Assembly: GCA_001873115.1 (NCBI GenBank)
Contig: MNYK01000002.1
Span: 1-52,367 of the forward strand
DNA: 52,367 nt
Reading direction: 5' to 3'
DNA from: Desulfobacterales bacterium CG2_30_60_27
Lineage (GTDB): Bacteria > Desulfobacterota > Desulfobulbia > Desulfobulbales > CG2-30-60-27
The translations under genes and the position numbers were made by a program. Within the stretch, counting starts at the first letter, position 1. Each line of letters begins with the position of its first letter. This document shows, piece by piece, positions 4,009-35,669 of this stretch. The notes under the pieces are model-generated. The model was not told the origin of the DNA. It saw nothing but the letters and a program-made list of their open reading frames with translations, and did not search any database.

Positions 4009-4037
4009 TTGACAATTCCGCCGCGGTTCAGTATCAG
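4009..4037 (+). promoter_or_regulatory. sigma70-like promoter (TTGACA-17-TATCAG) for RS1/cob operon
   Basis: TTGACA at 4009-4014, a 17-nt spacer, TATCAG at 4032-4037. The same arrangement is duplicated at 35410-35438. Confidence 0.5.
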
Positions 4038-4040
4038 AAA

Positions 4041-4209
4041 GGCTCATCTGGGTGCTTCCGCAAGGAGGCGTAAAAGGGAACCCTGTGCAAATCAGGGACG
4101 GGCCCGCCGCTGTAACCGGTGACAACTTCCGCAGATTGCCACTGTCCTTTAGGGACGGGAAGGCGCGGAAGGCGAACGAACCGGAAGTCAGAAGACCTAC
4201 CCGGGTGCC
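4041..4209 (+). promoter_or_regulatory. cobalamin riboswitch RS1
   Basis: Conserved cores are present: AAAAGGGAACCCTGTGCAAATCAGGGAC..GCCCGCCGCTGTAACCGG..GCCACTG..GGGAAGGCG and a B12 box AGTCAGAAGACCTACC. Confidence 0.9.
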
Positions 4210-4269
4210 TGGCATGCAGACCTCCGCGGCGTGAGGAATGCCAAGAAGATATTCGGGTAGCAGGGATGT

Positions 4270-11662: not shown

Positions 11663-11687
11663 TCAACGCTATGTAATTACTACCCAT

Positions 11688-11866
11688 GTTCCCCTGGTGG
11701 CGGCTGCATCACTGCACCGCTGAAAAGGGAATCCCGTGCAAATCGGGAGCGCTGGGCCGGCGCTGTAAACAGGGACTGCAACCGCATTTTGTCACTGTCC
11801 GGAATTTTAGGATGGGAAGGCGCGGCCAGCGGGATGATCTGTGAGTCAGAAGACCTGCCAGGGAAC
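11688..11866 (+). promoter_or_regulatory. cobalamin riboswitch RS2
   Basis: P1 GTTCCCCTGG / CCAGGGAAC. Cores AAAAGGGAATCCCGTGCAAATCGGGAGC..GCCGGCGCTGTAAAC..GTCACTG..GGGAAGGCG and B12 box AGTCAGAAGACCTGCC. Confidence 0.9.
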
Positions 11867-11897
11867 AAATATCAGATGGCTGTTTTGCCCAAAGACA

Positions 11898-13306: not shown

Positions 13307-13375
13307 GGCGCAACCGGGTTCACAGCCTTTCCTTGACCATTATCTGGAAATCGGGTAACAAGACCAAGAGTTAAT

Positions 13376-13533
13376 TCTCAGGCGCTCGTAACGAGCATAA
13401 CAGGGAACCCCGTGTGAACCGGGGACGGGCCCACCGCTGTGACCGGGGACGAATTCCGCAAAATGTCACTGTTCGTATGAACGGGAAGACGCGGAAGGAG
13501 AACGATCCGGGAGTCAGAAGACCTGCCTGAGAG
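13376..13533 (+). promoter_or_regulatory. cobalamin riboswitch RS3
   Basis: P1 CTCAGGCG / CTGCCTGAG. Cores ACAGGGAACCCCGTGTGAACCGGGGAC..GCCCACCGCTGTGACCGG..GTCACTG..GGGAAGACG and B12 box AGTCAGAAGACCTGCC. Confidence 0.9.
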
Positions 13534-13593
13534 CATACGTCTATCTTCGCGGACAGAAGATATGGCGACCAGTTCCAGGATATAAAGGGCTTT

Positions 13594-26150: not shown

Positions 26151-28028
26151 ATGGCAACAGCTAAAAACCCTATTGATGAAAAATCGATTTGGGATGATGC
26201 CCGCCAGATGCTGCGCAAGGCGGAACGAGACGGGGTTGAGACCGCTTGGGACCGCTTGGAGCATCAGACTCCTCACTGTACATTCTGTGAAAGCGGCCTT
26301 TCCTGCCGAAACTGTACCATGGGGCCGTGTCGGATCAGCAAAAAAGCCCCCTTGGGGGTCTGCGGTGCCGATGCCGATGTGATCGTTGCCCGCAACTTTG
26401 GCCGCTTTGTGGCCGGAGGCGCTGCCGGCCATTCCGACCATGGCCGTGACTGTATTGAGGCCCTGTATAACGTGGCCCACGGACTCACCAAGGATTACAC
26501 TATTAAGGATGAGACCAAACTGCTCCGCATTGCCAATGAGTTGGGGATTGCCACCAAAGGGCGGCCAATCCTTGATATTGCCAAGGATTTAAGCGCTGAA
26601 TTTTATTCAAACTTTGGCAGCCTGCGCAAGGAGCTCTCTTTTGCCTGCCGGGTTCCGGAAAAACGAAAGCAAATTTGGCGCAATCTTGGCATCACCCCCC
26701 GTGGTGTTGATCGTGAGATTGCCGAAATGATGCACCGCACTCATATGGGTTGTGACAACGATGCCGCCAACACCATGCTGCACAGTGCCCGCACATGTCT
26801 GGCCGATGGCTGGGCTGGATCGATGATCGCTACCGAGATCTCTGATATTCTGTTCGGTACGCCAAGCCCCAGAAAATCTAAGGTGAACCTCGGCGTTATC
26901 AAAGAGGATCAGGTTAATATCCTGGTGCATGGCCATAACCCCATTGTTTCCGAGAAAATTGTCGAGGCGGTCAATGACCCGGAACTCATCGCCCTGGCCA
27001 AGGCAAAAGGGGCTGCCGGCATCAACCTGGCAGGGCTTTGCTGTACAGGCAATGAGTTGATGATGCGCCGAGGCATTCCCATGGCCGGCAACCACCTGAT
27101 GACCGAGTTGGCCATTGTCACCGGCGCTGTTGAGCTCATCGTCGTAGATTATCAGTGCATCATGCCCAGCCTGGTCACGGTTGGCAATTGTTACCACACC
27201 AAGATGGTCACCACCGCCGACAAGGCAAAATTTCGCGGGGCCGAACATGTAAAATTTGAGATGCACAACGGTATGGCACAGGCGCGCAAGGTGGTGCGCA
27301 TGGCCATTGAGCGCTTTCCTTTACGCAACAAAGATCGGGTTGAAATCCCACAGGGGCCGATTGAACTGGTTACCGGATTTTCTAATGAGGTCCTCCTGGC
27401 CGCACTGGGCGGTACCTTGACGCCACTTGTTGACGCGATTAAGGCGGGGAAAGTTAGAGGAGCGGTTGGCATCGTCGGCTGCAACAATCCCAAGTACAAA
27501 CAGGATTACTGCAATGTCAACCTGGCCAAGGAGCTTATCAAGAAAGATATCCTGGTGCTGGTAACCGGGTGCGTTACCACCGCCACCGGCAAGGCAGGGC
27601 TTTTGATGCCGGAAGCCATAGCAATGGCGGGACCGGGCCTCAAGGAAGTTTGTGGTTCCTTAGGTATTCCGCCGGTATTGCATATGGGCAGTTGTGTTGA
27701 CAATGCGCGCATCCTGCAACTTGCCGCGCTCCTTGCCAATGAACTTGGTGTGGATATTTCTGACCTGCCGCTGGCCGGGTCATCGCCGGAATGGTATTCG
27801 GAAAAAGCTGCCGCCATTGGCACTTACTGTGTTGCCTCCGGCAGTTACACCCACCTCGGTCATCCTCCCAACATTACCGGCTCTGGAGTGGTAACCAACC
27901 TGGCCCTTGAAGGACTCGATAATCTTCTCGGCGCCTGCTTCGGCATTGAACCGGATCCCTTTAAGGCTGCCGAACTCATTGATAAGCGGATCAGACAAAA
28001 ACGCAAGGCCTTGGGGCTTTCTGAATAA
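26151..28028 (+). CDS. cooS: anaerobic Ni,Fe carbon-monoxide dehydrogenase catalytic subunit
   Basis: 625 aa. N-terminal Cys pattern CTFCESGLSCRNCTMGPCRI..GVCGA, then ..HGHNP.. and ..GSCVDN. GGAGGA RBS. Confidence 0.9.
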   Translation: MATAKNPIDEKSIWDDARQMLRKAERDGVETAWDRLEHQTPHCTFCESGLSCRNCTMGPCRISKKAPLGVCGADADVIVARNFGRFVAGGAAGHSDHGRDCIEALYNVAHGLTKDYTIKDETKLLRIANELGIATKGRPILDIAKDLSAEFYSNFGSLRKELSFACRVPEKRKQIWRNLGITPRGVDREIAEMMHRTHMGCDNDAANTMLHSARTCLADGWAGSMIATEISDILFGTPSPRKSKVNLGVIKEDQVNILVHGHNPIVSEKIVEAVNDPELIALAKAKGAAGINLAGLCCTGNELMMRRGIPMAGNHLMTELAIVTGAVELIVVDYQCIMPSLVTVGNCYHTKMVTTADKAKFRGAEHVKFEMHNGMAQARKVVRMAIERFPLRNKDRVEIPQGPIELVTGFSNEVLLAALGGTLTPLVDAIKAGKVRGAVGIVGCNNPKYKQDYCNVNLAKELIKKDILVLVTGCVTTATGKAGLLMPEAIAMAGPGLKEVCGSLGIPPVLHMGSCVDNARILQLAALLANELGVDISDLPLAGSSPEWYSEKAAAIGTYCVASGSYTHLGHPPNITGSGVVTNLALEGLDNLLGACFGIEPDPFKAAELIDKRIRQKRKALGLSE

Positions 28029-29211: not shown

Positions 29212-29250
29212 CGCAAACAATAAAGGCCGCCGCTTTGGAGCGGCAGCCTT
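29212..29250 (-). terminator. intrinsic terminator after the rhodanese/cytochrome operon
   Basis: Minus strand AAGGCTGCCGCT-CCAA-AGCGGCGGCCTT followed by TATTGTTT. A second perfect 10-bp hairpin lies at 29194-29218. Confidence 0.65.
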
Positions 29251-29277: not shown

Positions 29278-30225
29278 TCAGTGGGTCATGTAGCCCCAGG
29301 CGTATCTTTCCATGGAAACATCCTTGTCGTCAGCCGCCTCAAGGATGGAGCCGTCAAAGATTTTAACGTTGGTATAGCCTAGCAGATCGTGCAGGACAAA
29401 ATAACCTAACGAGGCCTGTAGGCCATGATTGCTGTAAGTGATGATCTCAACATTTTTGTCAGCCGGGATGCCGACTCCCGCCGCCATTTGTGTAAGGGTT
29501 TCGGTGTTTTTCATAAAAGCGGGCGAAAGGCTGACACCCGCATCAGACATATAGCTGGCCGGCCAGATCCGCGCTTTGAGGAGATGGCCGTAGCGCTTGA
29601 TATGGCTCTTTTTTTCGTGGCCGAAAAATTCCGTCGCTGACCGGTTGTCGAGCAGGACCGACTTGCCTGCTTTGATCTTCGCCTTTACTTCTTCCAGGGA
29701 GATTAATTTAGCCGCCACCATTTTGGCGGTAAAATTGCCGCGCCCTGGGGTTTTGGCCTCTTTGGAGACAGGTTTTTCCTCCTGTTCCCAGGCGGCGAAT
29801 CCGCCGTTCAGGATGGAGACCTTGTCGTGTCCCAGGGTATGGAGGGTCCAGAGGGCCCTGGCGCTCTTGCAGGTGTCTGTGGCGGTAACCCCCTCATCAT
29901 AGAGAATGATCTGCGAGTCGTTGTTGACGCCGTAGCTGCGAAGCATCGCCTCCAGGACGTCGGGTTTGGGCATCATGAAGCCGACAAACTTTTCGTTCAT
30001 GGTCTGCCAGGGGCCAAAGGCCTTTACTGCCCCTGGGATATGGTTCTTGTTGTAGTGGGTGAAGGCACCAACATCGAGAATCACGATGCCGGGCGTGTTG
30101 AGGTTTTTTGCCAGCCAGTCGCTGCTGACCAGCGGCGGGGTGTCCGCCAGGGCCGATATTGATGAACCGACCAGTATCGTCACGGCGGCCAGCATAACCG
30201 CCAGTTTAGTCTTCCAGGTGTTCAT
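29278..30225 (-). CDS. exported tandem-rhodanese-domain protein with Ser where the paralogue has its putative active-site Cys
   Basis: Signal peptide MNTWKTKLAVMLAAVTILVGSSISALA and two rhodanese-like halves. The C-terminal loop reads IITYSNHGLQAS, where the paralogue upstream has IIVYCNSSQFAG. Confidence 0.75.
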   Translation of the reverse strand: MNTWKTKLAVMLAAVTILVGSSISALADTPPLVSSDWLAKNLNTPGIVILDVGAFTHYNKNHIPGAVKAFGPWQTMNEKFVGFMMPKPDVLEAMLRSYGVNNDSQIILYDEGVTATDTCKSARALWTLHTLGHDKVSILNGGFAAWEQEEKPVSKEAKTPGRGNFTAKMVAAKLISLEEVKAKIKAGKSVLLDNRSATEFFGHEKKSHIKRYGHLLKARIWPASYMSDAGVSLSPAFMKNTETLTQMAAGVGIPADKNVEIITYSNHGLQASLGYFVLHDLLGYTNVKIFDGSILEAADDKDVSMERYAWGYMTH

Positions 30226-30255: not shown

Positions 30256-31206
30256 TTACTTGGTTATAAATCCCCATGAATAAACGGCAATGGGAAGATT
30301 CTCGTTCGCGGCATACTCAATCATCGAGCCATCAAAGACGCTCACATTTTTGTAGCCTAACCTTTCGTGGAGAACGAAAAAGCCCATTCCCGCAAACTGG
30401 GAGGAATTACAGTAGACGATGATGCGGGTGTTTTTGTCCGTCGGCAGGCCGACGCCCTTGGCCATGGTCGTCAGGTCTTCCTTGCTTTTGATCACGGCCG
30501 GGGCGCGATTAATACCGGCGTTGGTCATGTAGTCGGCTGGCCAGGTGAGTGAACCAGGGATATGGCCGAACCGTTTGACCTCGCCACTCTTCGCAAAGCC
30601 GAAGTGCTGGTCGCTGTTCCTCACATCCAGAAAGGTCGTCCCGCCTTTTTTGAGGCTGGCGCTAATATCCTGGAGGGTGGTTAGCTTGGAAGAGTCCAGC
30701 TTGGCGATGAAATTGCCCGGTTGCGGGGTTGGTTTTTTGTTGTCGATTGTCCGCCCTTCGAAGGTCCATTTGGTGAAGCCGCCATCAAGGTAGGAGATAT
30801 TTTTGTGGCCCATGGCGTTCATGATCCAATAAGCCGACGCCCCTTGGCTGGCGTCACTGACAGTATTGCCGTGGTCGTAGATGATTACGTGGGAGTCATT
30901 GTTGATTCCCAACTTCTGAAAATAGTCGGTGATGACCTCCGCGGTGGGCACCAGATGACATCCTGTCTCATCGTTTTTCGGGTCCCAACTATCGTAGGGC
31001 AGATTAACAGCGCCGGGAATGTGCCCTACGCCGTAATTGTCGGCGGTTCTGACGTCAAGGATGACAAGCCCCTTGGCGCTTAGATTTTTGGTTAGCCATT
31101 CCGTGCTTGCCAGCGCGTCGGCTGCCGCGGGCGTCGGCGCGGTCGCAAAACCGGCCAGCAGCGCCAACAGCATGTATATGATATAGTGCAACGGTCTCCT
31201 GTTCAT
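30256..31206 (-). CDS. exported tandem-rhodanese-domain sulfurtransferase
   Basis: ATG 31206 with AAGGAG upstream. Signal peptide MNRRPLHYIIYMLLALLAGFATAPTPAAA. A Cys is present in the C-terminal-domain loop (VYCNSSQFAG). Confidence 0.75.
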   Translation of the reverse strand: MNRRPLHYIIYMLLALLAGFATAPTPAAADALASTEWLTKNLSAKGLVILDVRTADNYGVGHIPGAVNLPYDSWDPKNDETGCHLVPTAEVITDYFQKLGINNDSHVIIYDHGNTVSDASQGASAYWIMNAMGHKNISYLDGGFTKWTFEGRTIDNKKPTPQPGNFIAKLDSSKLTTLQDISASLKKGGTTFLDVRNSDQHFGFAKSGEVKRFGHIPGSLTWPADYMTNAGINRAPAVIKSKEDLTTMAKGVGLPTDKNTRIIVYCNSSQFAGMGFFVLHERLGYKNVSVFDGSMIEYAANENLPIAVYSWGFITK

Positions 31207-31263: not shown

Positions 31264-32622
31264 TTACTTTTTGATCTTGCCGGGTATCTTGTCAAAGATG
31301 ATCTTTTGGTTGGCCTTGGGATCTTCCGGCACCAGATCATCCTTGGTCAGGAAGAGTTCCTTGTGGCCGTGGCAGGCATTACAGGAACTGTTCTGCTTGG
31401 TGTGGCGTTGGATGTTGTGAACCGAAGCGGAGTTCCAGGTCGGCAATGCGTCGTAGTTGGAAATGAGATCTTCGGGGCCGGGCTTGCCCGTCAACACATC
31501 TTGGAAGGACCGGAGCGATGCCAAAGAGTCCTTCTTCATTGGACTATGCCGTACCAGGTTGTACTTGTAGGGGTTGTTGGGAGTTATATCGATATTCTTG
31601 CCGATTTTGAAGGTGAAAAGCGGATCGGAAGGGAAGATAACTTTGATCTTGCCTGCTTCCTTGATGTCCAACGATACATGGCAATTGGTGCAGTTGAAAT
31701 ACTCGTTGGCATGGCATACCGCACAACCCAAAGTCCCTTCTGGATGGGCCTTGTGCATGGCGGTTTTGGAGCTGCCGGCCTTGCTGTCGGGATGACATCC
31801 CTCGCAACGAGAGGTTTCCGTGTCGTAGTAACGTTTGCTGGTTTCGGGCTTGGTGTTATGCAGTTGATCCCCCTTGTGGCAATCCACGCAGACCATCTGC
31901 ACCTTCTCGTAATGTACGTCGGCGGTTTTGCCGAGCAGACCCATATACTCGCCCGCGAAACGGGAGCCGTGGCAGGCGTAACAGGTCTTTTCCATGGGGG
32001 GAGTCTTCTGAAAGAGATGGCGGTCCAAAAGTCCGCCCTTGGCGACCTCCGGCCAGGCAACGTGGCAGCTGCCGCAAGAGGTGTGGCATTCAGCACAGTC
32101 GAGTTTCCAGGCGGCCGGCAGCAAGGTCTCTTCCATCTTGTGCGGCTGGCTGATGGTGCCGGTGATGTCGGCGATCCCTTTCAGGGTGTAGTGCATGGAA
32201 TTTTTGAAGGTCGAGGAGATATCATCGTGGCAATCCTTGCAGACGCCGCCACCACCTTCATCGGAAGGATCTTTGATGAGATCCTTGTGGGCCTTTTCCT
32301 CGTTAAAAACGTTTGTGCCTTTGTGGCAAGTGATGCAGCCAATTTTGCCATGGTTCGATTCGACAAATTCCATGGCAACGCCGAAGGTGTCCCGGCCCCT
32401 CACCTGAGGGGCGGTAACGCCTCAACCGGCGATACCGGCGGACGCGCTGGCCGCCGCGGCACCGAATTCGTCCATTTTCCCAAGGTCAGTGTGACACCTG
32501 ATGCACGCACTGCTGGGGTTTGCCTCTTCCTCGGCGGCAAGCGTTCCAGCAACGCCGAACGTACACGCCAACCCTAGCATGGTGGCACTCGCCACGGTGA
32601 GCCTTTTTTTGCCCATCCTCAT
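31264..32622 (-). CDS. periplasmic multihaem cytochrome c (11 CXXCH) requiring read-through of an in-frame UGA at 32424-32422; candidate selenoprotein
   Basis: Two same-frame ORFs (32622-32425 and 32403-31264) are separated only by TGA plus 6 sense codons. The upstream piece has the signal peptide and CIRCH. The downstream piece has 10 CXXCH and no signal peptide. AAGGAGA RBS before ATG 32622. Confidence 0.65.
32395..32412 (-). promoter_or_regulatory. candidate bacterial SECIS hairpin
   Basis: GCCCCUC-AGGU-GAGGGGC is a perfect 7-bp stem starting 9 nt after the UGA. A further 2 bp are possible across a one-nt bulge. Confidence 0.5.
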
Positions 32623-33268
32623 TGTGCTTTCTCCTTCTGCGTAAGAATTTATATGGATCCTTTGAGGTCAAAAGTATTAGCAGTGGCGGTTGGCGCAGCA
32701 CGATAACTGGGTAACAGCGCATGATGTCGCCTAGCAGAGATCTCAGACTCTAACAATTCAGTAGGCTTGGTTGTTATCACACTTTGGCCCATTTACATAT
32801 ATGGCAAATTGTCGCAGCTACGCTAGAACAGCGGTTTGGCCCTGAGATGATGTCGGCTTGAGCAACGGGTTCTACGGAGAGTCATTCAAACCGAGGGCTG
32901 GCAAGCTTGATCGGTCCAAACACATTGGTGGTAGTCGACGACGCACCGTTCGAGGCGACCTTCATCCACTCAGGGAATAGAATCAGCTTTGTCACCCAGC
33001 CGGAAGTATCTGGTAAAGGCAAGTATATCGTAGATTATGCGCGGACGATTGGACTAAAACTAGTATTCACATGATACCAGGCGGATTGGATCGGCTTCTG
33101 ATGAGCAGAGAGTGGCTGACTGAGCACGCTAGGCATGGATTCGAGCATGATGTTGCCGAGCATAGATAATCATCGCCAGCGGGAGGTGCGACACGGGAAG
33201 GATTCGTCCGAAAATGCCCATCAGAAAATCGAGCAACTATAGGGTTCTTTTGCTAATCTTTAACGACC

Positions 33269-33793
33269 ATGACCACTGTGCCTGGCACCGAGGTTTACCA
33301 GCTTCACGTCTGGATTCGCCAAATCAGCCCAATGATTTGGCGAAGGCTCCTTGTGCGTAGCGACAGCACGATCGCAGATTTGCACTACACGATACAGATC
33401 GCCTTAGGCTGGTCGGATGCGCATTTCAATCTGTTTCACATTCACGGCCAGGACTATGGCGTCTACCACGACGGCGGCATCAGCTTCTCACACAAGCCCG
33501 ATCGTGTCAAGCTGAGCGATTTCAAGTTCCGTACCAACGAGCGATTTCGTTATGAATACGACTTCGGCGACCGCTGGCAACATGAAGTGCGTGTTGAGCA
33601 CGCCTGGCGCCGGAAGCCAAACGCGCCTATCCCCGCTGCATTGGCGGCCAACGGGGTGCACCACCGGAAGACTGTGGTGGCCCCTTTGCATTCATGGCGC
33701 GACGGGATGAAATTCCTCTGCAACCCTATGACTTGCTTGAGGAATTTCAGGACCGTCTTGAAAACAACGATGAGGAAGGTATTAAGGTATTAA
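33269..33793 (+). pseudogene. pRiA4b ORF-3-like (IS-passenger type) protein gene, frameshifted and IS-interrupted at its 3' end
   Basis: YQLHVWIRQISPMIWRRLLV..YEYDFGDRWQHEVRVE is the family core. The conserved continuation LAPEAKRAYPRCIGGQRGAPPEDCGGPFAF is present but in another frame from about 33604. The IS left end lies at 33790. Confidence 0.7.
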
Positions 33794-35332
33794 CTCAACT
33801 TTCTGACTTGATTTAACTCGCTAGTATTCCGTAATTTTTATTATGCAAAGAGCGCATTGTTTCCAGGAGCTCTACTGCTGCCCCCATCATTGCATCAATC
33901 ATCTTACTGATGACATCCGCAGCCAATTCTCCTGTGCTACGGATTTTTTCAATGACAAGGGCCATCAGTCGCTGCAACGCCTCGACCAAGCTCAAATCCT
34001 TCACCTCGGCACAACAGGCATGAAAAAGACTGCCAACCGTCCTCTGGTCGGTATGCAGCCGTTGCCTAAACGCGAGGAACATATAGCGGGTCATGACCAC
34101 GGTCGCATGGCCGATCAGGCCGTCATAGTCCCGCAACTGGGCTTCCTTTTCCAGCTTCAGGTGCTGCTTGAGCATCTTGAAGCACACCTCGACATCCCAT
34201 CTCTTGCCGTAGATCCGGATGATTTCATCGTCAGCCAATTCCAGGTCGGTGGCAAGCACGGCCAGCCAGTCCCTCTTGTGGCGGTGGCGCACAAACACGA
34301 TTTTTACCCGCTGCCCCTGCTTGGTCTCCACCACGACACTGGCCAGAATCCTTGCCAGGCCAGAACGTTTTTTCAGCCGACCGTACAACCTCCCCAGCGT
34401 ATACCATTGCCCCTCATGTTTGTAGAAGACCTTGGGCATGTCCTTCAGCATGCAGATCACCGGGCGGTACGCAGACAACGTCGCGATGATTGCGGGAAAG
34501 GAGAACCAACTGTCCATCAGGATATAGTCGGCGTCTATCCCTGCTGCCAATACCCGCTTGAGCATTACGGCCAGAGGAGCGGTCGACTTGCGGATAGCCT
34601 CCATGCGCCGCGCATGTCCACAGGTCCGCTTGTCGACAGGCTTCCGCGCTTCCTGAATCCTCGACTTCGTATTGGCCGAGGAGCCCAGGACAAAGTCCAG
34701 GGGGATAAAACTATAGCCGTCCGACCAGCCTATGGTGAGCATGTTGAACCCCCGGAGGGACTTGCCCAATGTATGATCGAAGACCCAGGCGAGCAGCTCA
34801 ACCTTTTTCGAACGGGACCGGTCGTAAGTGCTGCTGTCAAAGATCAAAACCTTTTCCCGCTCACCGTCGGTGAGCAGAGAAAAGACGGTCGCAATTTTCA
34901 CGGCCAGGCCCAGCATGAGCTTACGCCAGTTATGCCGGGGATTGCGCAGCAGGTTATAGGCCGCATCCTTGCCAAACCCCAGAGCCTGATTTTTGGCGAT
35001 GCCGCGGAAGAAATTGTTCCCCTCAAAGGGCAACTTGAAAATCGCGCCGAACACTTTCAGCGGCGCTGCCCCTCGCAATTTGTGAATACCGGCGGCATTG
35101 AGCAAGTGGCCAAGCTGGAAGTCACTGAAAAACGAATCAATGGTATTCCCCAGGCGAATTGCCTCTTGCTGCTCAGCAAGTTTATGTATATACTCCATCA
35201 GTCCTTTCTCCTTGTTTTTATTATGTTTTTGCCAAACACAATATACCAGGGACGAAAGGACTTTTCTATTAAAAAATCAACTATTTCAAGCTGTTAGCAT
35301 GCGTTGTCCCGCAAGTCAGAAAGTTGAGTTAA
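33790..35332 (-). mobile_element. insertion sequence, IS4 superfamily (IS701-like), about 1.54 kb
   Basis: Perfect 21-bp terminal inverted repeats TTAACTCAACTTTCTGACTTG (33790-33810) and CAAGTCAGAAAGTTGAGTTAA (35312-35332). The outer TTAA may be a 4-bp target duplication. A single DDE transposase ORF lies inside. Confidence 0.85.
33813..35198 (-). CDS. DDE transposase, IS4-type
   Basis: 461 aa with the Y-x2-R-x3-E-x6-K signature in YGKRWDVEVCFKMLK. It fills the space between the TIRs. Confidence 0.85.
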   Translation of the reverse strand: MEYIHKLAEQQEAIRLGNTIDSFFSDFQLGHLLNAAGIHKLRGAAPLKVFGAIFKLPFEGNNFFRGIAKNQALGFGKDAAYNLLRNPRHNWRKLMLGLAVKIATVFSLLTDGEREKVLIFDSSTYDRSRSKKVELLAWVFDHTLGKSLRGFNMLTIGWSDGYSFIPLDFVLGSSANTKSRIQEARKPVDKRTCGHARRMEAIRKSTAPLAVMLKRVLAAGIDADYILMDSWFSFPAIIATLSAYRPVICMLKDMPKVFYKHEGQWYTLGRLYGRLKKRSGLARILASVVVETKQGQRVKIVFVRHRHKRDWLAVLATDLELADDEIIRIYGKRWDVEVCFKMLKQHLKLEKEAQLRDYDGLIGHATVVMTRYMFLAFRQRLHTDQRTVGSLFHACCAEVKDLSLVEALQRLMALVIEKIRSTGELAADVISKMIDAMMGAAVELLETMRSLHNKNYGILAS

Positions 35333-35409: not shown

Positions 35410-35438
35410 TTGACAATTATGCCACATTTCAGTATCGG
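35410..35438 (+). promoter_or_regulatory. sigma70-like promoter (TTGACA-17-TATCGG), duplicate of 4009-4037
   Basis: Same -35, spacer length and -10 position as the RS1 promoter. Confidence 0.5.
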
Positions 35439-35441
35439 AAA

Positions 35442-35610
35442 GGTTCATCTGGGTGCTTCCGCAAGGAGGCGTAAAAGGGAACCCTGTGCAAATCAGGGAC
35501 GGGCCCGCCGCTGTAACCGGTGACAAATTCCGCAGATTGCCACTGTCCTTTAGGGACGGGAAGGCGCGGAAGGCGAAAGAACCGGAAGTCAGAAGACCTA
35601 CCCGGGTGCA
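35442..35610 (+). promoter_or_regulatory. cobalamin riboswitch RS4, near-identical copy of RS1
   Basis: Same conserved cores and the same B12 box AGTCAGAAGACCTACC as RS1. Only a handful of substitutions across the aptamer by manual alignment. Confidence 0.9.
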
Positions 35611-35669
35611 TGGCATGCAGACCTCCGCGGCGGAGGAAGGCGACCGTAGTATTCGGGTAGCAGGGATGT

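What the first reader, a model, noticed from the sequence alone, without database searches (positions are those of the whole stretch)
31264..32622. In-frame UGA with a SECIS-like hairpin joins a signal-peptide/haem ORF to a ten-haem ORF: candidate selenocysteine-containing undecahaem cytochrome c
Seen directly on the minus strand. A 66-codon ORF (32622-32425) carries a signal peptide MRMGKKRLTVASATMLGLACTFGVAGTLAA and the first CXXCH (CIRCH). It ends at one TGA (32424-32422). The 379-codon ORF-track entry 32403-31264 is in the same frame, only six sense codons later (G V T A P Q). It has ten CXXCH motifs, no signal peptide, and only a GTG as nominal start. Read-through gives a 452-residue protein with 11 CXXCH and the context ...AAAASASAGIAG-U-GVTAPQVRGRDTF.... 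Nine nt after the UGA there is a perfect 7-bp hairpin GCCCCUC-AGGU-GAGGGGC. That puts the apical loop 16 nt from the UGA with a G in the loop, which fits the known geometry of bacterial SECIS elements. c-type cytochromes must be exported for haem attachment, so the downstream piece makes no sense without the upstream signal peptide. Inference: the UGA encodes Sec, placed about 20 residues after haem motif 1 in a Gly/Ala-rich loop. I do not recall a characterised Sec-containing multihaem cytochrome, so this may be a new selenoprotein family or an unannotated one.
Basis: partly seen in the sequence, partly recalled or inferred. Interest (0 to 1): 0.85.

Follow-up and report, generated by a model that had tools for sequence, protein, structure and literature searches.

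The report
Unannotated selenocysteine eleven-haem cytochrome family
The "stop" codon splitting this gene almost certainly encodes selenocysteine, which reveals a widespread but mis-annotated family of eleven-haem cytochromes that sit next to sulfur-transfer (rhodanese) genes and are unrelated to the one such selenoenzyme characterised so far.

Summary
On the minus strand, a 66-codon ORF (signal peptide plus CIRCH), one TGA (32424-32422) and a ten-CXXCH ORF lie in one frame. A 7-bp hairpin starts 9 nt after the TGA.

The selenocysteine reading is strongly supported:
- 80/80 homologous loci from five phyla have TGA at this position. Their true 3' stops are only 19% TGA.
- A stem-loop sits at the same distance in every clade but with different sequences. 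It shows compensatory changes and frozen synonymous sites. 70/81 sequences meet the published bacterial SECIS criteria.
- Divergent full-length homologues carry Cys (TGT) at the aligned position and lack the canonical SECIS hairpin.
- TGA is an ordinary stop elsewhere in the window.

The family is large: at least 572 species genomes and 440 clusters at 50% identity. Gene callers split it everywhere. It matches no NCBIfam model and is absent from a 2026 catalogue of prokaryotic selenoproteins. It shows no sequence similarity to MccSep/ExtKL, the five-haem Sec polysulfide reductase published in 2026.

The gene is almost always followed by rhodanese genes. Here the operon is cytochrome, rhodanese, Cys-to-Ser rhodanese, terminator. 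That suggests Sec-dependent reduction of sulfane sulfur, which is inferred and not shown. Sec machinery could not be checked.

The parts
31264..32622 (-). Complete read-through gene: 452-residue pre-protein with Sec at residue 67 and 11 CXXCH motifs
   Evidence: one frame; TGA conserved in 80/80 homologous loci
32631..32636 (-). Shine-Dalgarno-like AAGGAG, 8 nt before the ATG at 32622
   Evidence: read directly
32533..32622 (-). Signal peptide (about 30 residues, ...TLAA/EEE)
   Evidence: homologues have signal or lipoprotein (lipobox Cys) peptides at this position
32491..32505 (-). Haem motif 1, CIRCH (residues 40-44)
   Evidence: invariant in 78 full-length sequences
32422..32424 (-). In-frame UGA, inferred Sec codon (residue 67), in the context G-U-G
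32385..32422 (-). SECIS-like element. Core 7-bp stem and AGGU loop at 32412-32395. The extended lower stem reaches the A of the UGA.
31264..32421 (-). Post-Sec body: ten CXXCH, ten invariant non-motif His, Met210, Met243 and a C-terminal beta-rich region
30256..31206 (-). Rhodanese-1: secreted two-domain rhodanese with a conserved catalytic Cys (YCNSSQFAG)
29278..30225 (-). Rhodanese-2: secreted two-domain paralogue with Ser in place of the catalytic Cys (YSNHGLQAS)
29223..29250 (-). Intrinsic-terminator-like hairpin (12 bp, 8 GC, T-rich tail) that closes the three-gene operon

Best explanation
32622-31264 (minus strand) is one gene. Its UGA at 32424-32422 is decoded as selenocysteine under the direction of a bacterial SECIS stem-loop that begins 9 nt downstream. 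The product is a secreted cytochrome c of about 420 residues after signal-peptide cleavage. It has eleven c-type haems and one Sec, which lies 23 residues after the His of haem motif 1 on a Gly/Ala-rich linker (G-U-G). It belongs to a large family, so far unannotated, that is unrelated in sequence to MccSep/ExtKL. What is shown here: single-gene continuity, site-specific conservation of UGA, a conserved and covarying RNA hairpin, and Sec/Cys pairing. What is inferred: the protein works with the co-transcribed periplasmic rhodanese(s) in sulfur redox chemistry. The most likely mechanism is that Sec attacks sulfane sulfur (a rhodanese persulfide, polysulfide or thiosulfate-derived sulfur) to form a Se-S intermediate. 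Electrons from the haem chain then reduce that intermediate and release sulfide. This parallels the Sud-Psr system and the proposed MccSep mechanism.
For: (1) TGA at the aligned position in 80/80 loci from Desulfobacterota, Nitrospirota, Chloroflexota, Bacillota and Spirochaetota. Each has an upstream ORF with a signal or lipoprotein peptide plus one CXXCH. The true 3' stops of the same genes are TAA 44, TAG 18, TGA 15. (2) TGA is the normal stop of 14/28 Pfam-confirmed genes in the window, so there is no global reassignment. (3) A hairpin sits at a fixed distance in every clade but with clade-specific sequences. Synonymous sites are frozen exactly there: entropy is 0 at codons +4 to +8 in 36 Chloroflexota sequences, against 1-2 bits in the flanks. 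86.8% of cells pair, against 37-48% in slid registers. 6/8 pairs show compensatory changes. 69 cells are doubly changed against 20 expected, reached by 0/500 shuffles. 70/81 sequences meet all four bSECIS criteria quoted from PMC13188914. (4) Cys aligns with Sec in full-length homologues P0132, P0197, P0151, P0148, P0160 and P0130. The three Cys forms examined use TGT and lack the canonical hairpin at the SECIS position. (5) Every gene caller truncates the protein at the same residue. (6) Rhodanese is the next gene in Desulfobacterota/Nitrospirota, Chloroflexota and Bacillota, and it is fused to the cytochrome in L053. (7) The probable Dethiobacter alkaliphilus orthologue (10 haems, no signal peptide, next to a rhodanese) was detected in a proteome. 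That organism has only multihaem cytochromes as candidate sulfur and thiosulfate reductases.
Against: There is no direct evidence of selenium incorporation. selA/selB/selC/selD could not be examined for this genome; the window holds only tRNA-Arg and no sel genes. Rfam has no matching SECIS model. The function is inferred from gene neighbourhood alone. In Spirochaetota and Tissierellia the next gene is ResB, not rhodanese. D. alkaliphilus strain Z-1002 reportedly cannot reduce sulfur yet carries the same cluster. The structural model is only moderate (pLDDT 72.6), omits the N-terminal fragment and finds no PDB neighbour, so the position of Sec relative to the haems is unknown. Some homologues have neither Sec nor Cys, so the residue is not indispensable to the fold.
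Confidence: 0.85

Rival explanations
1. The UGA is a real stop. The locus encodes a 66-residue secreted mono-haem peptide and a separate ten-haem protein started at GTG 32403, as gene callers annotate it.
For: This is how all public annotations read it. In this GC-rich window, TGA codons flanked by long open frames are common by chance.
Against: The downstream piece has no signal peptide in any of 80 loci, yet c-type haem attachment requires export (established biochemistry). The nominal GTG lies inside the hairpin and has no ribosome-binding site. The called starts fall just after the TGA in unrelated phyla. TGA is used 80/80 times here against 19% at true stops. Full-length Cys homologues join the two halves.
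Confidence: 0.04
2. The UGA is read through, but not as Sec. Either a near-cognate tRNA inserts Trp, Cys or Arg, or read-through is stimulated by the hairpin.
For: Two divergent homologues carry Trp (TGG) at the aligned position (P0138, P0145). Sec machinery was not verified.
Against: The hairpin meets the specific bSECIS criteria, including G[G/U] in the apical loop and 16-17 nt spacing, in four clades with different stem sequences. The pairing with Cys rather than Trp in most stop-free homologues is the standard selenoprotein signature. Per PMC13510729, Desulfobacterota and Nitrospirota, two of the phyla represented here, encode Sec-type MccSep.
Confidence: 0.05
3. The TGA is an assembly error, a sequencing error or a pseudogene lesion in this contig.
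For: One homologous MAG (L011) does carry an evident lesion, a TAA inside a CXXCH motif.
Against: The same TGA occurs in 80 independent assemblies, including complete genomes and isolates.
Confidence: 0.01
4. The protein is a divergent member of the MccSep/ExtKL polysulfide reductase family.
For: Both are secreted Sec-containing multihaem cytochromes linked to rhodanese genes (ExtH in Geobacter) and to sulfur-metabolising taxa.
Against: There is no hit to NF040886 even at E <= 1. There is no hit to the MccSep PDB sequences 9wt8/9wt9 at E <= 1, although they are in the library. This protein has 11 rather than 5 haems. Its Sec is near the N-terminus (residue 67) rather than at U325 on a C-terminal Ig-like domain. 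It has no conserved non-motif Cys equivalent to the haem-ligating C239.
Confidence: 0.03

Closest known systems
MccSep (ExtKL, GSU2937-2936) of Geobacter sulfurreducens, a Sec-dependent multihaem polysulfide reductase (PMC13510729; PDB 9wt8)
   Same: It is a secreted multihaem cytochrome c with one Sec encoded by an in-frame UGA followed by a SECIS-like hairpin. It was historically annotated as two ORFs. It has Sec and Cys forms. It occurs in Desulfobacterota and Nitrospirota. It is genomically linked to a rhodanese-like protein (ExtH). Function in reducing S-S bonds is proven there and plausible here.
   Different: No detectable sequence similarity. This family has 11 haems (12-13 in some Chloroflexota members) against 5. 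[quoted passage not shown] It has no conserved haem-ligating Cys. Its taxonomic range extends strongly into Chloroflexota, Bacillota and Spirochaetota.
Other catalogued Sec-containing cytochrome-type families: Otr-family octahaem cytochrome (TIGR04315) and the GSU2204 family (NF041027), listed in PMC13188914
   Same: They are CXXCH proteins in which some members carry Sec.
   Different: TIGR04315 scores 20 bits against a cutoff of 375, and only for one distant member (P0040). NF041027 gives no hit.
Sud-Psr system of Wolinella succinogenes, where a periplasmic rhodanese-type polysulfide-sulfur transferase feeds a terminal reductase (recalled from established literature, not tested here)
   Same: The logic is a secreted rhodanese carrying sulfane sulfur to a periplasm-facing reductase.
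   Different: Psr is a molybdopterin enzyme with no haem c and no Sec. The analogy is functional only.
DealDRAFT_1917 / OMD50_RS07060 of Dethiobacter alkaliphilus (PMC10376724)
   Same: It is described as a 10-haem cytochrome with no signal peptide, adjacent to a rhodanese-domain protein, once mis-named a thiosulfate sulfurtransferase, and proposed as a sulfur-reduction determinant. This matches the truncated downstream ORF of this family. JGI gives the same odd name to family members.
   Different: Identity with this family is inferred from the description, not from its sequence. That paper did not recognise an upstream ORF, a UGA or Sec.

Membership tests
Bacterial selenoprotein gene (Sec-UGA plus bSECIS) | In-frame UGA with coding continuity and conservation on both sides | tested here: met
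   80/80 loci; upstream signal peptide plus CXXCH; downstream ten or more CXXCH
Bacterial selenoprotein gene (Sec-UGA plus bSECIS) | bSECIS: 3-9 nt apical loop, 4-16 bp upper stem, G in the first two loop positions, 16-37 nt from the UGA, MFE <= -7.5 kcal/mol (criteria from PMC13188914) | tested here: met
   Window: 7-bp stem, AGGU loop, 16-nt spacing. 70/81 family members meet all four criteria.
Bacterial selenoprotein gene (Sec-UGA plus bSECIS) | Homologues with Cys aligned to the UGA (Sec/Cys pair) | tested here: met
   (six exact, two within one residue); TGT codons
Bacterial selenoprotein gene (Sec-UGA plus bSECIS) | selA, selB, selC (tRNA-Sec) and selD present in the genome | not testable with these tools
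   Only this 52-kb contig is available. It contains none of them.
Bacterial selenoprotein gene (Sec-UGA plus bSECIS) | Selenium physically present in the protein | not testable with these tools
   Needs 75Se labelling, ICP-MS or MS/MS.
Multihaem cytochrome c | Multiple CXXCH motifs, matching distal ligands and an export signal | tested here: met
   11 invariant CXXCH, 10 invariant non-motif His plus Met210 and Met243. Pfam Cytochrome_C7 at 53.7 bits and Cytochrom_c3_2 at 40.3 bits. Signal peptide.
MccSep / ExtKL (NF040886) | Match to the family model or to the solved sequence | tested here: not met
   No NF040886 hit at E <= 1. No hit to 9wt8/9wt9 at E <= 1.
MccSep / ExtKL (NF040886) | [quoted passage not shown] | tested here: not met
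   11 motifs, Sec at residue 67, no conserved non-motif Cys (features)
Otr octahaem tetrathionate reductase family (TIGR04315) | Score above the curated cutoff (375 bits) | tested here: not met
   No hit for the window protein; 20 bits for P0040
GSU2204-family CXXCH selenoprotein (NF041027) | Match to the family model | tested here: not met
   No hit

The most novel reading that the evidence does not exclude
The Sec is itself the distal axial ligand of one haem, giving a natural His/selenolate-ligated haem c as the catalytic centre. It would be the selenium counterpart of the His/Cys haems of MccSep, TsdA and SoxAX. The family has 11 haems but only 10 invariant non-motif His and no conserved extra Cys, so one haem needs a non-His partner. 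Met210 and Met243 are the more ordinary candidates.
Probability: 0.08. Interest if true: 0.92.

Novelty: new variant of a known kind. Interest (0 to 1): 0.74.

Why it matters
If confirmed, this is a second and evolutionarily independent family of Sec-containing multihaem cytochromes, and it too is paired with rhodanese. That would point to convergent use of selenium plus a haem wire for sulfur chemistry.

The family is broad, with at least 572 species genomes in at least five phyla, including Anaerolineae, which are abundant in sediments and digesters. It is split into two ORFs in every annotation seen here, so it would be missed in surveys of cytochromes, selenoproteins and sulfur-cycle genes.

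It is a concrete candidate for the unidentified sulfur or thiosulfate reductase of organisms such as Dethiobacter, which lack Psr and Dsr. Cultured carriers exist, so this can be tested directly. It would also add an entry to the prokaryotic selenoproteome and justify a curated annotation model.

Tried and rejected
- RNAalifold on all 81 ungapped segments gave no pairs because two stem registers were mixed. Splitting by clade resolved this.
- Rfam has no SECIS-type match here.
- Foldseek of the AlphaFold model against the PDB gave nothing usable. The model has no haems and little secondary structure, so this negative is weak.
- The PDB sequence search gave only chance hits to beta-2-microglobulin.
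- Back-translated junction patterns with TGY found no Cys forms (controls 45-46). A junction profile found only truncated proteins. I first read these as meaning the family was exclusively Sec. That was wrong. The patterns were too strict, and the exhaustive HMMER search then found Cys forms.
- A scan of the window for other in-frame TGA junctions was too noisy to use.
- A Bacillota-type junction pattern did not retrieve D. alkaliphilus AHT1 itself, so the link to DealDRAFT_1917 rests on the paper's description.
- Two sulfur-metabolism papers (PMC12545173, PMC13490349) do not mention this module.

Full report
**Observation.**
On the minus strand, an ATG at 32622 follows AAGGAG with an 8-nt spacer. 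It opens a 66-codon ORF encoding MRMGKKRLTVASATMLGLACTFGVAGTLAA..., the haem motif CIRCH and a Gly/Ala-rich stretch. A single TGA follows at 32424-32422. The same frame then continues for 385 codons containing ten CXXCH motifs and ends at TAA (31266-31264). The listed 379-aa ORF is simply the part after the first GTG. That GTG lies inside the hairpin GCCCCUC-AGGU-GAGGGGC (32412-32395), which starts 9 nt after the UGA. The 76-nt region folds at -39.5 kcal/mol, z = -3.1. A TGA flanked by open frames is not rare in this 59% GC window: there are 75 cases with 50 or more codons on each side. The case therefore has to rest on comparison with other genomes.

**Comparative evidence for recoding.**
- A protein search returned hundreds of homologues. 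Almost all began within a few residues after the position of the TGA, including distant Chloroflexota proteins at about 38% identity that start M/V-APLEPWEK.
- A scan of one genome per GTDB species gave at least 572 loci encoding a relative. I examined the best 80.
- In 80/80, the first in-frame stop upstream of the match is TGA. It sits in a G-U-G context and is preceded by an ORF with a signal or lipoprotein peptide and one CXXCH.
- The true 3' stops of the same 80 genes are TAA 44, TAG 18 and TGA 15.
- In the window itself, TGA terminates 14 of 28 Pfam-confirmed genes. UGA is therefore an ordinary stop in this organism, and the recoding is site-specific.

**The RNA element.**
Every clade has a stem-loop starting 9 nt after the UGA, but the sequences differ:
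- Desulfobacterota/Nitrospirota: GCCCCUC-AGGU-GAGGGGC
- Chloroflexota: GUGGCUCC-GUU-GGAGCCAU
- Bacillota: GGCCCGC-AGUUA-GCGGGC
- Spirochaetota: GCGCCG-GAGUUUU-CGGCGC

Synonymous sites are frozen exactly in the stem. In 36 distinct Chloroflexota sequences, codons +4 to +8 are invariant at the nucleotide level, while equally conserved flanking residues use 2-6 codons. The Desulfobacterota/Nitrospirota clade shows the same pattern at +4 to +9.

On the 55 sequences outside that clade, the stem is 86.8% paired. Shuffles give 66.7 ± 1.5% and slid registers give 37-48%. Six of eight pairs show compensatory changes. There are 69 doubly changed cells against 20 expected, reached by 0/500 shuffles. In the window's own clade, a 15-pair extended stem that reaches the A of the UGA is 91.7% paired, against 48-63% when slid, but it varies little.

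Against the bSECIS criteria printed in PMC13188914, the window element and 70/81 family members pass all four. Rfam has no corresponding model.

**Sec/Cys pairing.**
My first attempts to find Cys forms failed because the patterns were too strict. An exhaustive HMMER search of 1.84 billion representatives found 440 clusters at E <= 1e-3, 225 at E <= 1e-10 and 93 at E <= 1e-30. Many of these carry N-terminal extensions.

I aligned them with Sec masked as X. Six full-length homologues place Cys in the Sec column (for example SSS-C-GGEAPPL and GEG-C-GGTVPEMEAWEK), and two more place a Cys within one residue. Five others have Tyr, Trp, Leu or Gly there, and one has a gap.

The three Cys forms I examined use TGT. 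They lack the canonical SECIS hairpin, although one (L090) has a different hairpin further downstream. The hairpin therefore goes with the UGA, not with the peptide.

**What the protein is.**
Across 78 intact full-length sequences the invariant features are 11 CXXCH motifs, ten non-motif His, Met210, and a few Arg, Tyr and Trp residues. Met243 is 94% conserved. No additional Cys is conserved. One haem therefore lacks a His distal ligand. Some Chloroflexota members have 12-13 motifs.

Pfam sees only generic c7/c3 domains. NCBIfam gives nothing near any cutoff. There is no ExtKL hit (NF040886) and no GSU2204-family hit (NF041027), and Otr (TIGR04315) scores 20 bits against a cutoff of 375. MccSep structures are in the PDB sequence set but are not matched at E <= 1.

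An AlphaFold model of the post-Sec part is moderate (pLDDT 72.6, pTM 0.70). It has a helical N-terminal part, a beta-rich C-terminal part and a disordered first 12 residues. Foldseek finds no PDB neighbour.

The 2026 catalogue of prokaryotic selenoproteins lists only ExtKL, the GSU2204 family and Otr among cytochrome-type entries. A phrase search for Sec-containing cytochromes returns only the MccSep paper. MccSep itself has five haems, U325 on a C-terminal Ig-like domain and a Cys239-ligated haem 2. That is a different architecture.

**Genomic context and likely function.**
In the window the gene is followed by two secreted two-domain rhodaneses and then a strong terminator. This three-gene arrangement is conserved throughout the Desulfobacterota/Nitrospirota clade. 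Rhodanese-1 keeps the catalytic Cys. Rhodanese-2 has Ser there in all 20 recovered loci.

In other clades:
- Chloroflexota loci are followed by a four-domain rhodanese of 570-660 aa. In L053 this is fused to the cytochrome.
- Bacillota loci are followed by one- or two-domain rhodanese lipoproteins.
- Spirochaetota, Tissierellia and Anoxynatronum loci are followed by ResB instead.

The rhodaneses are closest to SseA and to Geobacter ExtH, but they score below the cutoffs for both.

In Dethiobacter alkaliphilus, a cytochrome described as having 10 haems and no signal peptide sits next to a rhodanese. It was once mislabelled a thiosulfate sulfurtransferase. It has been proposed as a sulfur-reduction determinant, and its orthologue in strain Z-1002 (OMD50_RS07060) was detected in a proteome. 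This fits the truncated form of this family, although I could not compare the sequence directly.

From this I infer a Sec-dependent reductase for sulfane sulfur, supplied by rhodanese. This is an inference from context. Strain Z-1002 reportedly does not reduce sulfur yet carries the cluster, which counts against a simple assignment.

**Verdict.**
The result is a new, widespread and mis-annotated family within a kind of enzyme that became known only in 2025-26. Still untested are the presence of the Sec machinery in this genome, physical selenium incorporation, and the enzymatic function.

Noticed in passing
window 29278-30225 (-) compared with 30256-31206 (-); L001-L023: The two rhodanese paralogues are a conserved pair. 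The first keeps the catalytic Cys (YCN[ST]xQxAG). The second has Ser at that position in all 20 loci recovered (YSNxGxxAA). This suggests a non-catalytic adaptor or carrier subunit.
   Followed up: partly
L053:5944-9009: In one Chloroflexota MAG the cytochrome is fused in frame to a four-domain rhodanese (1021 residues after the UGA; Pfam Rhodanese 236.8 bits). This could explain why JGI names family members 'thiosulfate/3-mercaptopyruvate sulfurtransferase'.
   Followed up: partly
L011:1060-1072: A TAA interrupts a CXXCH motif (C-R-stop-C-H) in one Thermodesulfovibrionales MAG. It is a pseudogene or an assembly error, and unlike the conserved TGA.
   Followed up: yes
P0138 and P0145: Two divergent homologues have Trp (TGG, one base from TGA) at the Sec-aligned position. 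Three others (P0133, P0155, P0158) have Tyr, Leu or Gly there, and P0163 has a gap. So some branches have lost the redox residue altogether.
   Followed up: no
window 4033-4218, 11678-11876, 13363-13544, 35434-35619 (+): There are four cobalamin riboswitches (100-127 bits). They lie among cobalamin biosynthesis genes (CobT, CobQ, CobD, CbiK, CbiD, CbiA), a ThiC-family radical SAM gene, and a TonB-dependent receptor with BtuFCD-like transport genes.
   Followed up: partly
window 33269-35198: A DDE transposase (33813-35198, -) and a PRiA4_ORF3-family gene (33269-33793, +) lie directly upstream of the cytochrome operon. Together with 72-77% identity between Desulfobacterota and Nitrospirota copies, this hints at lateral transfer of the operon.
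   Followed up: no
window 26151-28028 (+): A 625-aa Prismane/CO-dehydrogenase-family protein (607 bits) is encoded about 1.2 kb beyond the end of the operon on the opposite strand. No link to the finding was established.
   Followed up: no
L044, L054 and similar (Anoxynatronum, Spirochaetota, Tissierellia loci): In these clades the gene after the Sec-cytochrome is ResB (system II cytochrome c biogenesis) rather than rhodanese. In CP045798.1, ResB/CcsA and a cytochrome b with a multihaem pair also lie nearby.
   Followed up: partly
window 31264-32421 (-), residues 176-187 of the full protein: There are two haem motifs only two residues apart (CAECH-TS-CGSCH; family consensus CxxCH[TA][ST]CG[SDE]CH). 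This is invariant across the family and was specific enough to serve as the search pattern that recovered the genome loci.
   Followed up: no
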